DNA of 10,828 nt from the NCBI GenBank assembly GCA_030614005.1, contig JAUWKS010000092.1, forward strand, positions 1 through 10,828, read 5' to 3'. This document shows positions 1 to 8,635 of the stretch, in pieces; the stretch's first letter is position 1; every line of letters starts with the position of its first letter. The position numbers were made by a program, and so were the translations under genes. The notes beneath the pieces were generated by a model. The model saw only the letters and a program-made list of their open reading frames with translations. It did not search any database and was not told where the DNA came from. Origin of the DNA: Candidatus Heimdallarchaeota archaeon (GTDB lineage: Archaea; Asgardarchaeota; Heimdallarchaeia; JABLTI01).

Positions 1-101
1 TAAACGCTTGAAGATCAAGTAATTTTGTGTTAGCACGAGGAAAACTTTCAGCAATCTCCAGAGAAAAGGACTTTAAACAGGGAAGAAGCATAGTTCTTTA
101 C

Positions 102-236
102 TGACTACCAAAAAGTCAACAGCCTTCGAGGCTCCAACCCCGTGCCGTATACCGACTCGGGAATCCCCCACTCAACTGTTCCTAGTGGGGGCTCAGAGAT
201 GAACTGCACCAACAAATTGATCGCGGTGACTGGGAA
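102..236. ncRNA. Candidate structured non-coding element (GC-rich island); identity unknown, possibly the non-coding end of an IS110/IS1111-type element
   Basis: Hand count gives 68/120 G+C (57%) at 121-240 versus 23/120 (19%) in the intergenic stretch 581-700. Stems seen: CCCCCACT/AGTGGGGG (165-172/184-191, extendable with a bulge to 161-194), AGCCT/AGGCT (121-133), TGACT/AGTCA (102-118), CACC/GGTG (207-228). No ORF with a credible start covers it. No tRNA, SRP, RNase P or riboswitch core motif recognised. Confidence 0.45.
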
Positions 237-248
237 TGGATAAAAGAC

Positions 249-575
249 TCAGTGTCCCATTTGTCCATAAAAAAAGGAACGGTCGGGGCAATCAAATGGT
301 ACATCAAGAGTAAGTAGACCATCTTCATAATTGGCTTTCACTTTGCTGGTATTAGCATCGCAAAGAAATTTCAATTCACTAACATATTCAATGTTGATTC
401 CTTTCTTTGCATTTAGTCGCATACCGGATTTGATTACTTTCAAATCAATATCATTCTTTTTGACTCCAGGTAATGCTATTGAAATGTGATAATGATCTTC
501 ATCGATATCATTACAATCACACCCGCAATCCACACAGGGATATACCCAGATTTTTTTAGTGTCAGTTTCAGACAT
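249..575 (-). CDS. Small heat-shock protein, Hsp20/alpha-crystallin family (108 aa), Cys-rich N-terminus, possibly 3'-disrupted
   Basis: Alpha-crystallin-domain motifs YHISIALPGVKKNDIDLKV and VKANYEDGLLTLDVP. A TATA-like AT tract lies at about 598-612 upstream. No C-terminal IxI/V motif. Confidence 0.9.
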   Translation of the reverse strand: MSETDTKKIWVYPCVDCGCDCNDIDEDHYHISIALPGVKKNDIDLKVIKSGMRLNAKKGINIEYVSELKFLCDANTSKVKANYEDGLLTLDVPFDCPDRSFFYGQMGH

Positions 576-876: not shown

Positions 877-2094
877 TTGACGAATGATGAGACGGAGAAG
901 GAAGAAACGAAAGTTAAAGTCAAAAAAGAAGAAGAAAAAAAAGAAACGAAAGAAACAGAAGAACTTACAGGTGCTCAAAAGAGAGGAAAAAGACAACAAG
1001 AACGAGCACAAAAACGCAGAGAAAGAAAGGAAAAAATTAAAGAAAAGAAATTTTATCACCCATTGAGAATTTTACGTGGTATAGGTCTTTTCTTCTGGAT
1101 AATAATAAAAATCATCATATTTCCATATGTTTACGCTTATTGGAAGATTAGAGATACCTTCAAATTTCTGTCCAGAAATGATAAAGAAGATTTGGATCGG
1201 ACTTTACTAAAAATAGAAGATGGCGATACGATACCAGAAGGATATATCAATGAAATGGGATTCTTAAGATCACTCCCTATGTTTTACTTTATTGCAGGAA
1301 CATTAGGAGCAGTTTTTGCAATATTCATTTCATTTGATTTCATGGACGACGTTTGGGCAGCAATTAGAGATTTCTTTGTTCATTTCGAATGGAGTATTGC
1401 CTGGGCGCTCTTTTTAGATATACTTGAAGCAATTTTTGTTACAGTAATCTGGGAATTTATCTTAGTGAACATCGGGAAAGGAATTGCAGCTGCTTTTAAC
1501 TTTCTATTCTCTGGAGATAGCTTTTGGATTCCATTAGTAATACTAATTGTATTGGGTGTTGGCATAACGATACTAGCAGTCTTAGTTAGTGAAGTAGATT
1601 TCTCAGGCAAATTTATGAAGAAAGTAAAAGCGTTCTTTATCGCAATTTTTACTTTCCCAAAGATTGTTTGGGGATGGATGAAAAGTGCCTATCATTCATT
1701 TCAAAGAGGTATTTCACGGTTTACCTTTGGTAATAATAAACTCCTACATTATCAAAAGCGATTCTTTTACAGAGTTGTTCTCTATAGTACAATAGTCACA
1801 TTTTGGATAATTGCTGCGGTTATAACGTTAGTTATCGCAAACGCAATAGATGGAAATGAAATTGTTAATGAAGCGCTTGTCTACCCAATAGTACTTCTCA
1901 TAATAGGGTTTGCAAATGGGGTATTGCTCTTAGCATTCCTCAGCTGGTTAATAGGATTAATTAGCGGTGAAAAATACATTGTAGATAAAGAGGGATATGC
2001 AAAATACATAGAAGAGAAAAGCAAAGCACAAGAAGAGAAAAAATTAGCAAGAGCAGAAAAACAAAAGAAAAGAATTTCTAAAAGATCAGGCTAA
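877..2094 (+). CDS. Hypothetical polytopic membrane protein (405 aa) with highly charged N- and C-terminal tails
   Basis: Long ORF with TTG start 8 nt after AGGAGA (863-868). Several hydrophobic segments (about 6-7 by eye) flanked by K/E/R-rich tails. No family recognised. Confidence 0.85.
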   Translation: MTNDETEKEETKVKVKKEEEKKETKETEELTGAQKRGKRQQERAQKRRERKEKIKEKKFYHPLRILRGIGLFFWIIIKIIIFPYVYAYWKIRDTFKFLSRNDKEDLDRTLLKIEDGDTIPEGYINEMGFLRSLPMFYFIAGTLGAVFAIFISFDFMDDVWAAIRDFFVHFEWSIAWALFLDILEAIFVTVIWEFILVNIGKGIAAAFNFLFSGDSFWIPLVILIVLGVGITILAVLVSEVDFSGKFMKKVKAFFIAIFTFPKIVWGWMKSAYHSFQRGISRFTFGNNKLLHYQKRFFYRVVLYSTIVTFWIIAAVITLVIANAIDGNEIVNEALVYPIVLLIIGFANGVLLLAFLSWLIGLISGEKYIVDKEGYAKYIEEKSKAQEEKKLARAEKQKKRISKRSG

Positions 2095-6856: not shown

Positions 6857-8635
6857 CTAAATATTCGTTATTTTCCATTTCTGATCATCATAATCATATA
6901 ATTCATGTAACGGAACATAATTGGATTTATGTAGTTTTATTGTGTAAAAAGAAGGGGAGAAATCTGCGTCAGTTAATACTTCTTCAATAATTTTTCGAAC
7001 AGGATGTTGATGAGAAACACCAGGAATATGAAAAAGAAATCGGTCATATAGATTTATTTGACCCAAAAAAGCAAATATCCGCAATTTGTCTACAATAGCT
7101 TGAAGTTTTCCATTCGTTTTTTCATCTACTATTGGAAGCTCAAAGGCTAAAACATCTGAACCAAATCTCACGAAATTTCTCATAAATAAAGAGAAAGACA
7201 ACAAATCTTTTCTTCGTGCTCTTAGCTCATTTTGATATAACAAATCTGTTTGAGATTTAACATCGGTTATTGGAATATTTTTTTCAAAAAAGAACTTTTT
7301 GAATTCATTAATATTGACAGCATATCTTGCTTGTAATAGATATTTGCCCTTTAGAACTGAAAGAAAATACAAAAGATTATAATCAAGAACAACAGGTTTA
7401 TCCGATATTGGAATAACTGAACTTCTTTTTTCATGATGGAAAGTAAATTTTCTTAAATATTGATCTCCTTGAGTGATTAATTTCTTGAAGATATTTAATG
7501 TTGGATTATAGGGAAAATTCGTAATAGCAAAATAACGATATTTTTCTCTAACTAATTGAATTGTATAACTAGAAATCAATCCGGAATCTTTCATTTTTCT
7601 GAAGCGTGTGCGGAGTTGATCACTAATTATATGAGGGCAGATAAGAGAAGGAGAATAGATTATTTGAGATTCACCATCATAGCCATTATAAAGTGATTTT
7701 AAATATGGAATCGTTAGAAGCAGAGAATTTATTTTCTGTACAAAAATGTCTTTAGTAGTTGTAATTTTTATAAAATAATTATGAAGGTTTATTTCTTCAT
7801 AATTTATATGGGCAATCCAATAAGTGGAATAATTTTCATTTAAAGCTTTGAATCGTTTAGCAATTGTCTTTTGCGACAATTTATCTTTCTTTGCAATCAT
7901 AGAAGTTGAACTCTTTTCATAACCGAATTCAAAAAGAGTTTCAATAAGATCAATTAATTTTTTATTTGTATAAATTGGTAAAATAACATTTTCTGCCTTT
8001 ACTGTAATTGAAGTGACCCATTGTGAGAAGTGTTTAACTTTCTCTTGAGTAGATTTTGAAAGATCATTTACTAAAACATAAAATTCATCAAAAACATCAG
8101 AAAAGGGAATGCTCTTCGATATTAATAGGATAAGTAAATTGTCCCAATAGATAGGACTTGCTCCAGCTATTTCCTCTGAATAAATTTTGGCTCTTATTGC
8201 GGAAAGCATTGGGTTATCAATAGTACTAATTCCGAGCACAGCAGTTAACAAAACAATAGTAATGATATTCAGTATCGCTTCTTCTTCTTCGCAAAAGTTT
8301 TTTTTGACAAAGTTCTTAAAACTTTGTTTTATTAGAAAGAAAGAGAGCAGATATCTTTTTGTGTTATACTGTAAATCCAATATCCATTTAGCAATAATTG
8401 TGCGTTCATTTATACAAGCAAGACCAAAATAGGGATTATAATCCCTCCTAACTTTCCCGAAAGCTAATTTTAGCTCATTATCAAATGCTGATTTCTTCAA
8501 AGAAATTGACAGTAAAGGTATAATTTCCTTAGATAGAGAACTAAGTGTTTTGGAAATCTCAGTCCCAGTTTTTTCTGCTATTTTATCTATGGCATCAATA
8601 GCATACAATACTTTCTCTCTGAGATCGTTGTTCAT
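6857..8635 (-). CDS. Large putative transcriptional regulator (592 aa): unexplained N-terminal domain (about 220 aa) plus Lrp/AsnC-like HTH-effector unit and a degenerate second unit
   Basis: HTH-like segment STSMIAKKDKLSQKTIAKRFKALNEN (aa 243-268) followed by INYEEINL (aa 277-284), like the Lrp linker. A second LDYNLLYFLSVL segment (aa 417-428) resembles an Lrp N-terminal helix. C-terminus LYDYDDQKWKI. The ORF is certain; the family call is by motif recognition only. Confidence 0.65.
   Translation of the reverse strand: MNNDLREKVLYAIDAIDKIAEKTGTEISKTLSSLSKEIIPLLSISLKKSAFDNELKLAFGKVRRDYNPYFGLACINERTIIAKWILDLQYNTKRYLLSFFLIKQSFKNFVKKNFCEEEEAILNIITIVLLTAVLGISTIDNPMLSAIRAKIYSEEIAGASPIYWDNLLILLISKSIPFSDVFDEFYVLVNDLSKSTQEKVKHFSQWVTSITVKAENVILPIYTNKKLIDLIETLFEFGYEKSSTSMIAKKDKLSQKTIAKRFKALNENYSTYWIAHINYEEINLHNYFIKITTTKDIFVQKINSLLLTIPYLKSLYNGYDGESQIIYSPSLICPHIISDQLRTRFRKMKDSGLISSYTIQLVREKYRYFAITNFPYNPTLNIFKKLITQGDQYLRKFTFHHEKRSSVIPISDKPVVLDYNLLYFLSVLKGKYLLQARYAVNINEFKKFFFEKNIPITDVKSQTDLLYQNELRARRKDLLSFSLFMRNFVRFGSDVLAFELPIVDEKTNGKLQAIVDKLRIFAFLGQINLYDRFLFHIPGVSHQHPVRKIIEEVLTDADFSPSFYTIKLHKSNYVPLHELYDYDDQKWKITNI

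What the first reader, a model, noticed from the sequence alone, without database searches (positions are those of the whole stretch)
102..282. GC-rich structured island next to hsp20: candidate ncRNA, possibly an IS110/IS1111 bridge/seek-type RNA
Seen: 57% GC against 19% in the nearby intergenic DNA, at least four stems, and no credible ORF. An alternative minus-strand fold gives stem (152-158 with 113-119, with G-U pairs), unpaired segment, small hairpin (130-139), unpaired segment, which is the topology of bridge-RNA binding loops. The plus strand has ATAC...GGGAATCCC...CAACTGTTC, and the island ends in GTCCAT (263-268). From memory these resemble IS110-family non-coding regions and IS1111 subterminal repeats; this was not aligned. 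Established knowledge: IS110/IS1111 elements encode guide RNAs in non-coding ends. Inference: this may be the right end of such an element with its recombinase left of the window, or else an unrelated ncRNA or cis-regulatory leader.
Basis: partly seen in the sequence, partly recalled or inferred. Interest (0 to 1): 0.65.

Follow-up and report, generated by a model that had tools for sequence, protein, structure and literature searches.

The report
TnpB guide-RNA scaffold in mini-transposon
The GC-rich island is the folded guide-RNA (omegaRNA) scaffold of a 333-bp gene-less copy of an 11-kb Cas1/TnpB jumping element of a Heimdall (Asgard) archaeon, not an IS110 bridge RNA; it is a known kind of mobile DNA that here landed in the tail of a small heat-shock gene.

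Summary
The island is real, but it is not an IS110/IS1111 RNA. Window 1-283 is the right part of a 333-bp repeat. The genome holds about 12 left and 10 right ends of it, with sharp borders and unrelated flanks.

The same two ends bound an 11.2-kb element on contig C9. That element carries an intact TnpB, a LAGLIDADG-HTH gene, a 1392-aa protein with a Cas1 fold and a helicase.

Window 97-240 is the relic of the last 50 tnpB codons. This stretch, up to base 283, is the TnpB omegaRNA scaffold. It forms five plus-strand helices and a 9-bp pseudoknot, supported by compensatory changes across 29 homologues from two Heimdall families.

Upstream, the mini-element keeps the tnpB promoter block and TATA box. 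It is therefore a promoter-plus-guide-RNA cassette, and its guide would be host DNA from base 284, inside hsp20.

No IS110, Y1 or serine transposase was found in the assembly.

Gene-less elements that carry only an omegaRNA, and Asgard Cas1-TnpB loci, are already described. Other agents in this scan reached the same reading on other copies. I class it as a new member of a known kind, of modest interest. Expression and use by TnpB are inferred, not shown.

The parts
1..283 (+). Right 283 bp of a 333-bp gene-less mini-element (element positions 52-333). The contig starts inside the repeat, and the left part lies on contig C1 (C1:125..1, reverse complement).
   Evidence: BLAST against the window's own genome, with a full copy at C124:1-333. 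Sharp borders and unrelated flanks. The C1 link comes from synteny with G004 and from the restored hsp20 reading frame.
39..58 (+). Conserved block (consensus AATACTTTCRGYAATCTC) that lies about 50 nt upstream of the tnpB start codon in full-length elements. Probably a promoter-proximal or operator element.
   Evidence: Nearly invariant in diverged mini-elements from four genomes, and found upstream of tnpB in C9, G010:C17 and G004:C286, with a variant (ATTATTTTC) in G004:C300.
71..78 (+). TATA-like box (CTTTAAAC). It aligns with the TATA box upstream of tnpB and predicts a transcription start near base 100.
   Evidence: Alignment A8. The start site is inferred from the usual archaeal spacing of about 26 nt.
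94..243 (+). Relic of the last 49-50 codons of tnpB (stop-to-stop frame, TAA at 241-243). It is the DNA that encodes most of the omegaRNA scaffold.
   Evidence: tblastn of TnpB residues 497-546: 60% identity, E 9e-18. Alignment with the C9 tnpB 3' end. Same frame in all copies.
121..133 (+). Helix P0 (121-125 with 129-133).
   Evidence: C-G to U-A compensatory change between mini-element and TnpB-linked copies. This is the weakest helix, at 70-83% paired.
139..161 (+). Helix P1 (139-142, 144, 146, 147 with 153, 154, 156, 158-161).
   Evidence: 98-99% of cells paired. 4 of 7 pairs changed on both sides in A2, and all 7 in A6.
165..191 (+). Helix P2 (165-172 with 184-191) with an 11-nt loop (173-183). 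Loop bases 175-183 form the 5' strand of the pseudoknot.
   Evidence: 97-99% paired, with 4 pairs changed on both sides.
193..233 (+). Helix P3, lower part (193-196 and 199 with 227 and 230-233) and upper part (204-207 with 223-226).
   Evidence: The upper part has 3 of 4 pairs changed on both sides. The lower part is mostly invariant or keeps pairing through G-U.
236..268 (+). P4, the right-end palindrome (236-244 with 260-268). It encloses the tnpB stop codon. Its 3' arm (253-269) is the inverted repeat of the element's left end.
   Evidence: 15-bp perfect hairpin in G004:C286. 85-89% paired. Inverted-repeat copies in the genome. It probably also serves as a DNA-level end signal.
275..283 (+). 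3' strand of the pseudoknot (AGGAACGGT) and last bases of the element. Pairs with 175-183.
   Evidence: 94.7% paired in 29 homologues, against 81.0% for the competing local helix. Compensatory C-G to U-A change in the C63-type clade and A-U to G-C in L067.
284..303 (+). Predicted guide segment, which is host flank. The length of about 16-20 nt is assumed from other TnpBs.
   Evidence: Conservation stops at T283 in every copy and the flanks are unrelated. That this stretch acts as a guide is inferred from the known TnpB mechanism.
249..575 (-). hsp20 gene, interrupted at its 3' end. Its last 11 codons and stop now come from the element.
   Evidence: Pfam HSP20, 32.7 bits. The uninterrupted orthologue in G004 ends ...DCPDPFKEVDPIKIS. 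Joining the C1 and C79 flanks through AGGGT restores ...DCPDPFKGQKSIKIS.

Best explanation
Window 102-283 encodes the omegaRNA (right-end RNA) scaffold of a TnpB RNA-guided nuclease. It is preserved in a 333-bp non-autonomous derivative of an 11.2-kb Cas1-like/TnpB transposon of a Heimdallarchaeota genome.

The mini-element has four parts: the left end; the tnpB promoter region (a conserved block plus a TATA box); the last ~190 nt of tnpB with the right end; and nothing else.

Inferred mechanism: transcription starts near base 100 on the plus strand and runs through P0-P4. The last nine bases (275-283) fold back onto the P2 loop as a pseudoknot. The transcript continues into host DNA from 284, which serves as the guide. 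TnpB made elsewhere (contig C9, or an unassembled copy) would bind this RNA in trans and cut a copy of the hsp20 site that lacks the element, next to a G-rich adjacent motif (about AGGGT). That would favour retention of the insertion.

Shown: repeat structure, homology to the tnpB 3' end, covarying structure, strand, promoter homology. Inferred: expression, TnpB binding, guide length, adjacent motif.
For: Multicopy repeat:
- 333-bp repeat with sharp borders and unrelated flanks.

Parent element:
- The same ends bound an 11.2-kb element at C9:140901-152079. Its TnpB ORF stops 32 nt before the right end.
- Homology between this element and its 83%-identical counterpart in G010 stops at the element ends.

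Link to tnpB:
- Window 112-283 aligns with the C9 tnpB 3' end at 76% identity.
- Window 97-240 still reads as TnpB residues 497-546.
- TnpB genes of 543-555 aa end 13-42 nt before the same right end in four relatives.
- The C9 protein passes NCBIfam guided_TnpB (109.9 bits against a cut-off of 100) and matches solved TnpB and Cas12f chains.

Structure:
- 96.5% of cells paired, 11 pairs changed on both sides, slid controls 29-51%.
- In 29 homologues: 90.3% paired, 30 pairs changed on both sides, 0/500 shuffles reach this.

Strand:
- 53 G-U cells against 14 C-A cells, which points to the tnpB sense strand.

Pseudoknot:
- 9 bp between the P2 loop and the element terminus, 94.7% kept, with two independent compensatory changes.
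- This matches the pseudoknot just 5' of the guide in the ISDra2 omegaRNA (PMC10097598).

Family spread:
- The covariance model finds the RNA in 15 of 82 genomes of the class, in two families. One hit lies directly behind a second TnpB of this genome at C63.

Promoter:
- The middle of the mini-element aligns with the region upstream of tnpB, including its TATA box.
Against: - No transcript data could be consulted, so expression, RNA ends and TnpB binding are not shown.
- The single-sequence folding energy is not better than shuffles (z = -1.0).
- In TnpB-linked copies the region is also coding, so part of its conservation is protein constraint.
- Alignment A6 was fitted to the model's helices, which inflates the counts for those helices. 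The pseudoknot was not in the model.
- The only assembled cognate TnpB (C9) has a scaffold just 76% identical to this copy, and it has an A-C mismatch in its own pseudoknot.
- Copies within this genome are 85-98% alike. Their similarity alone says nothing about function.
- No Rfam family matches.
Confidence: 0.85

Rival explanations
1. It is an IS110/IS1111 bridge or seek RNA at the end of an element whose DEDD recombinase lies beyond the contig start.
For: Multicopy, with sharp borders and subterminal inverted repeats, as in IS1111. The proposed minus-strand stem does form in this copy.
Against: - No PF01548 or PF02371 match in the 90%-complete assembly, although the same search rings in 6 of 14 control genomes.
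- A complete 333-bp copy (C124) has no gene to its left.
- Every full-length relative has TnpB overlapping this sequence.
- The minus-strand stem is lost in homologues (62.8% paired).
- G-U pairs favour the plus strand.
Confidence: 0.01
2. It is an inert relic. The mini-element is a recent deletion product whose tnpB tail still looks structured only by descent; no RNA is made or used, and only the DNA ends matter for mobilisation.
For: - Copies in this genome are young (85-98% identity).
- Folding energy is not exceptional.
- No expression data.
- The P4 palindrome and the inverted repeat are plausible DNA-level signals.
Against: - Gene-less copies in four genomes have diverged to 62% mean column identity. 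They still keep the promoter block, the TATA position and the scaffold helices through compensatory changes, while the linkers drift.
- G-U wobble pairs are strand-specific, which DNA-level duplex signals do not explain.
Confidence: 0.1
3. The cassette acts mainly on its host neighbour. Promoter-driven read-through from the element is antisense to the hsp20 mRNA 3' end and regulates, or simply damages, hsp20.
For: - The predicted transcript runs into hsp20 on the opposite strand.
- The insertion replaced the hsp20 C-terminal tail, which in the restored gene and in G004 ends in IKIS, an I-x-I motif.
Against: - Other copies lie next to unrelated genes in either orientation, so any hsp20 effect is a by-product of this one insertion.
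- It does not explain the conserved scaffold.
Confidence: 0.04

Closest known systems
TnpB omegaRNA / right-end RNA, e.g. ISDra2 (Karvelis 2021, PMC8612924; cryo-EM structure, PMC10097598)
   Same: - Encoded on the tnpB sense strand.
- Overlaps the tnpB 3' end and runs to the transposon right end.
- Multi-helix scaffold whose last bases form a pseudoknot with an upstream region, directly 5' of a guide taken from the flank.
   Different: - No sequence or Rfam similarity.
- The pseudoknot is 9 bp and uses a hairpin loop.
- The scaffold runs through an inverted repeat shared with the left end.
- The carrier transposon has no Y1 TnpA.
- The TnpB is larger (546 aa against 408 aa).
PATE-like gene-less IS200/IS605 derivatives that carry only an omegaRNA (Meers et al. 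2023, bioRxiv 10.1101/2023.03.14.532601)
   Same: A non-autonomous miniature that shares both ends with a TnpB element and keeps the omegaRNA. That RNA would have to be used in trans by a TnpB encoded elsewhere (for the paper; here).
   Different: - The parent is an 11-kb Cas1-like/TnpB element of Asgard archaea, not an IS605.
- The miniature also keeps the tnpB promoter, fused directly to the scaffold.
Asgard Cas1 (aCas1)-TnpB loci, groups Cas1H-Asgard-1/-2 (Altae-Tran et al. 2023, PMC10691335, citing Makarova et al. 2020)
   Same: - Asgard host.
- TnpB together with a Cas1-fold protein, between repeats.
- A conserved T followed by hypervariable DNA downstream of tnpB, proposed there to be the guide.
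   Different: - The conserved GTTCACTCA motif reported downstream of the variable region was not found within 150 nt of any right end here.
- Whether this TnpB belongs to those two named groups could not be checked, because no supplementary data are held.
- The paper does not describe the RNA fold or the miniatures.
IS621 / IS1111 bridge and seek RNAs
   Same: A transposon-end-encoded structured RNA that reads flanking or target DNA, and subterminal inverted repeats.
   Different: - No DEDD recombinase.
- A different partner protein (TnpB).
- A different strand and fold.
IS607 family (serine-recombinase TnpA plus TnpB)
   Same: - G-rich junctions. The element sits between ...AGG(G) and (G)GT..., with 0-2 bp duplicated, like the GG target described for IS607 (Kersulyte 2000, cited in PMC10691335).
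- TnpB lies at the right end.
   Different: - No serine recombinase in the element or the assembly.
- The NCBIfam IS607_TnpB score is far below its cut-off (46 against 350).

Membership tests
TnpB omegaRNA (OMEGA guide RNA) | Lies at or over the 3' end of tnpB and extends to the transposon right end, on the tnpB sense strand. | tested here: met
   In C9 and four relatives the homologous stretch covers the last ~50 codons of a 543-555-aa TnpB, and the stop codon lies 13-42 nt from the right end. G-U against C-A counts of 53:14 favour the sense strand.
TnpB omegaRNA (OMEGA guide RNA) | Conserved secondary structure supported by covariation. | tested here: met
   96.5% paired, 11 pairs changed on both sides, slid controls 29-51%. 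30 such pairs in 29 homologues.
TnpB omegaRNA (OMEGA guide RNA) | Pseudoknot formed by the last scaffold bases just 5' of the guide. | tested here: met
   175-183 pair with 275-283. 94.7% kept, two compensatory events, and it beats the competing local helix at 81.0%. Most columns are invariant, so support is moderate.
TnpB omegaRNA (OMEGA guide RNA) | Guide taken from the DNA flanking the right end, so it differs between copies. | tested here: met
   Conservation ends at T283 in all copies and the flanks are unrelated. That the flank is used as a guide is inferred.
TnpB omegaRNA (OMEGA guide RNA) | A cognate TnpB with RuvC and zinc-finger motifs is present. | tested here: met
   C9 TnpB: NF040570 at 109.9 bits against a cut-off of 100, plus Pfam OrfB_IS605 and Cas12f1-like_TNB. 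The motifs VDPG, IAIEDL, ADRDYNASVNI and CxxC...CxxC are read directly; they were not aligned to a structure.
TnpB omegaRNA (OMEGA guide RNA) | The RNA is expressed, processed and bound by TnpB, and directs DNA cleavage. | not testable with these tools
   No transcript data or biochemistry available.
IS110/IS1111 bridge or seek RNA | DEDD_Tnp_IS110 plus Transposase_20 recombinase in the element. | tested here: not met
   No match in the genome, while the control genomes ring. A full 333-bp copy has no gene.
IS110/IS1111 bridge or seek RNA | Conserved two-loop fold (target-binding and donor-binding loops) on the proposed strand. | tested here: not met
The structure favours the other strand.
Non-autonomous miniature (MITE/PATE-like) of a larger element | Shares both termini with a gene-bearing element, carries no gene, and is multicopy with varied flanks. 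| tested here: met
   Left-end 42 nt and right-end 172 nt are shared with the 11.2-kb C9 element. There are 12 left and 10 right ends, including those of the C9 element itself. No ORF beyond the tnpB relic.
Asgard aCas1-TnpB transposon (Altae-Tran 2023) | A Cas1-family protein is encoded with TnpB between terminal repeats. | tested here: met
   Residues ~760-1140 of the 1392-aa protein fold with pLDDT 78.6. The best PDB matches are all casposase or Cas1, with E down to 1.4e-7. E936, H1020, D1029, D1036 and E1039 are invariant. Sequence profiles alone do not detect Cas1. The ends are defined.
Asgard aCas1-TnpB transposon (Altae-Tran 2023) | A conserved T, then a hypervariable region, then a conserved GTTCACTCA motif downstream of tnpB. 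| tested here: inconclusive
   The conserved T283 followed by variable flank is present. The downstream motif was not found within 150 nt.
IS200/IS605 (Y1 TnpA) and IS607 (serine TnpA) | The cognate TnpA transposase is present in the element or the genome. | tested here: not met
   No PF01797 or PF00239 match in the assembly. The assembly is 90% complete, so absence is not proven.

The most novel reading that the evidence does not exclude
The promoter-plus-omegaRNA miniatures are not just debris. They may form a dispersed set of trans-acting guides that load the single TnpB of a Cas1-mobilised transposon. One archaeal element family would then combine a Cas1-type integrase, a Cas12 ancestor and many guide-bearing repeat units, making it a living analogue of a stage between transposon guide RNAs and CRISPR arrays. 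On this reading the pseudoknot uses bases that are fixed by the G-rich insertion site.
Probability: 0.15. Interest if true: 0.7.

Novelty: new member of a known kind. Interest (0 to 1): 0.35.

Why it matters
It settles what a conspicuous 'unknown structured RNA' in an Asgard genome is, and it removes a false IS110 bridge-RNA lead.

It also gives a covariation-backed fold, a promoter, element ends and an empty site for the omegaRNA of the Cas1-associated TnpB elements of Heimdall archaea. In the papers I could read, those loci are predicted only at gene level, so these details make the system testable. A bench test could combine the C9 TnpB, this about 185-nt scaffold and a guide, with a candidate adjacent motif near AGGGT.

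For genome annotation, it explains many contig breaks in this assembly, and it shows that hsp20 here carries a transposon-derived tail.

Tried and rejected
- Rfam 15 at gathering and at E <= 10, and ARAGORN: nothing in 102-283.
- IS110, Y1 and serine-recombinase searches of the genome: nothing.
- Single-sequence folding gave no significant z-score on either strand, so I did not use energy as evidence.
- Pairing left-end and right-end contigs by reading-frame continuity alone was inconclusive. Synteny with G004 resolved it.
- Clean empty site for the 11-kb C9 copy in G010: not found. G010 has about 305 bp between the two flanks that are missing in G000.
- Cas1 could not be detected in the 1392-aa protein by Pfam, NCBIfam or a 17-sequence profile against PDB sequences. 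Only the predicted fold showed it.
- A right end - spacer - left end arrangement, or the published GTTCACTCA motif, downstream of right ends: not found.
- An inner hairpin in P3 (210-212 with 217-219): not supported in that register (42.9% paired).
- The local helix 261-266/276-282 proposed by RNAalifold is less well kept than the pseudoknot.
- Supplementary data of PMC10691335 are not held, and Makarova et al. 2020 is not held.

Full report
**The observation.**
The window is the first 10,828 bases of contig C79 of a 3.62-Mb, 33.5% GC assembly. Titles of close relatives identify it as a Candidatus Heimdallarchaeota MAG.

Bases 102-282 are 50.3% GC, and the peak 100-nt window reaches 56%. The intergenic DNA beyond hsp20 is 23.6% GC, with 18-20% in its poorest windows. 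Rfam 15 and ARAGORN find nothing here. Single-sequence folding is not better than shuffled controls on either strand (z = -1.0 and -0.17).

**A repeat with sharp ends.**
BLAST against the window's own genome shows that window 1-283 recurs on about twenty contigs, mostly at contig ends, and that similarity always stops at base 283.

A contiguous copy on C124 defines a 333-bp unit. I counted 12 left ends and 10 right ends (including those of the 11.2-kb C9 element), with unrelated flanks. The left end carries TATGGACAAATAGGACA 24 nt from the tip. The right end carries its reverse complement 14 nt from the tip.

C79 begins inside the repeat. The matching left part is on C1, for three reasons:
- The G004 orthologue of hsp20 is followed by DNA homologous to C1:421-948.
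- Joining the C1 and C79 flanks through the five bases AGGGT restores an hsp20 ending DCPDPFKGQKSIKIS. G004 has DCPDPFKEVDPIKIS.
- The 74-nt overlap between the C1 and C79 repeat parts differs by one base.

**The parent element.**
The same 42-nt left end and 172-nt right end bound 11.2 kb on contig C9 (C9:152079 to 140901, minus strand). Read from left end to right end, it encodes:
- a 1058-aa DEAD-helicase/MZB/phosphoesterase fusion;
- a 1392-aa protein;
- a 542-aa LAGLIDADG-plus-HTH protein;
- a 546-aa TnpB on the other strand, whose stop codon lies 32 nt from the right end.

An 83%-identical element lies at another site in genome G010, and homology stops at the element tips. The TnpB passes NCBIfam guided_TnpB (109.9 bits against a cut-off of 100) and matches solved TnpB and Cas12f chains.

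Sequence methods fail to show it. However, residues 760-1140, folded with 17 homologues (pLDDT 78.6), match only casposase and Cas1 structures, with E down to 1.4e-7. Invariant E936, H1020 and D1029/D1036/E1039 are spaced like the Cas1 catalytic residues.

This places the element with the Asgard aCas1-TnpB loci described at gene level by Altae-Tran et al. 2023 (PMC10691335). The assembly has no IS110-type, Y1 or serine transposase.

**What the island is.**
Window 112-283 aligns with the 3' end of the C9 tnpB gene and its right end at 76% identity. Window 97-240 still translates to TnpB residues 497-546, at 60% identity and E 9e-18. Four relatives have 543-545-aa TnpB genes ending 13-42 nt before the same right end. 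The island is therefore the relic of the tnpB tail, which is exactly where TnpB elements encode their omegaRNA.

**Structure.**
Twenty-four copies from four genomes of the genus give a consensus fold on the plus strand. 96.5% of cells are paired and 11 of 23 pairs are changed on both sides. Pairing is 29-51% when the partners are slid. G-U cells outnumber C-A cells 53 to 14, which fixes the tnpB sense strand.

A covariance model built from these copies finds the RNA in 15 of 82 genomes of the class, in two families. One hit lies directly behind a second TnpB of this genome on C63. In 29 diverse members, 30 of 47 pairs are changed on both sides, and none of 500 shuffles reaches this. The caveat is that this alignment was fitted to the model's helices.

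In window coordinates the helices are:

| Helix | Bases paired |
|---|---|
| P0 | 121-125 with 129-133 |
| P1 | 139-147 with 153-161 |
| P2 | 165-172 with 184-191 |
| P3 | 193-207 with 223-233 |
| P4 | 236-244 with 260-268 |

In addition, the P2 loop (175-183) can pair over 9 bp with the last nine bases of the element (275-283). This pseudoknot was not part of the model. It is kept in 94.7% of cells and shows a C-G to U-A switch in the C63-type clade and an A-U to G-C switch in one further copy. It does better than the competing local helix, at 81.0%. A pseudoknot made by the bases just 5' of the guide is the hallmark of the ISDra2 omegaRNA and of Cas12 guide RNAs (PMC10097598).

**A promoter is retained.**
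The middle of the mini-element has no similarity to the tnpB coding sequence. It does contain a block, AATACTTTCRGYAATCTC (window 39-58), and a TATA-like box (71-78). Both are conserved in diverged miniatures of four genomes, and both align with the region about 50 nt upstream of the tnpB start codon in full-length elements.

The miniature is thus left end + tnpB promoter + omegaRNA + right end. With the usual archaeal spacing, transcription would start near base 100, where the GC-rich island begins. This start site is an inference.

**Mechanism proposed.**
By analogy with characterised TnpB systems (PMC8612924; Meers et al. 2023), the transcript would carry host sequence from base 284 as its guide. 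It would be used in trans by TnpB to cut the same site when it lacks the element.

The restored empty site reads ...TTTAAA-AGGGT-CGGGGC.... All left junctions read AGG(G/A), once GGGG, and all right junctions read CGGT. The duplication is therefore 0-2 bp, in a G-rich target. The occupied site differs from the empty site by C instead of G four bases before the guide. That is a possible basis for sparing the occupied site from cleavage, but this is speculative. Such a short duplication is unlike the 14-15 bp of casposons, so a role for the Cas1-like protein as the transposase remains unproven.

**Comparison and verdict.**
Three things are already described: omegaRNAs, gene-less elements that keep only an omegaRNA, and Asgard Cas1-TnpB loci.

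Earlier notes of this scan reached the same reading on other copies and in other genomes. I repeated the key tests independently and they hold.

This is a new member of a known kind. Expression and function still need experimental proof.

Noticed in passing
window 249-575 (minus strand), with G000:C1:126-160: The insertion removed the natural C-terminal tail of hsp20 (restored reading ...PFKGQKSIKIS, with an I-x-I motif as in G004) and replaced it with 11 element-derived residues (RSFFYGQMGH). The chaperone may be impaired, and the element's promoter points antisense into the gene.
   Followed up: partly
G000:C9:140901-152079 (L001:902-12080): 11.2-kb element carrying a helicase-MZB-phosphoesterase (best PADLOC match SngC), a 1392-aa protein with a Cas1/casposase fold, a LAGLIDADG+HTH protein and TnpB. 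It inserts with only 0-2 bp of G-rich duplication, unlike casposons, so the enzyme that moves it is unresolved.
   Followed up: partly
L001:12081 and L001:901 compared with L043:2238-2547 (G010:C17): At the C9 insertion site, G000 lacks about 305 bp of coding DNA that G010 has between the two flanks. Both breakpoints in G010 lie at GG. This suggests a deletion linked to the element, or recombination between two insertions.
   Followed up: partly
window 39-58; L001:2626-2645 (minus); L032:9644-9663: An 18-20-nt block (AATACTTTCRGYAATCTC) just upstream of the tnpB TATA box. It is conserved in full-length elements and miniatures of several genomes, and sits between the divergent LAGLIDADG-HTH and tnpB genes. 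It is a candidate operator.
   Followed up: partly
G000:C63:35155-35385 (L057:1856-2085) and L033:10079-10310: A second 547-aa TnpB has a related omegaRNA (113 bits). Here the ~70 nt after the pseudoknot strand are conserved between G000 and G010 and contain an inverted-repeat-like TTTGGACAATAGG. This subfamily either ends differently or is a fixed, non-mobile locus.
   Followed up: no
whole assembly (contig ends of C1, C5, C11, C26, C30, C35, C39, C45, C50, C66, C75, C76, C78, C79, C85, C116, C117, C124, C126): This one repeat family accounts for about 19 contig ends, so much of the assembly's fragmentation is due to it.
   Followed up: partly
window 877-2094 (+) and 6857-8635 (-): Two sizeable ORFs have no Pfam match: a 405-aa protein with a lysine/glutamate-rich N-terminus and hydrophobic segments, and a 592-aa protein. 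The rest of the window is ordinary: a MacB/FtsX-type ABC transporter, a TIM-barrel protein and a luciferase-like monooxygenase.
   Followed up: no
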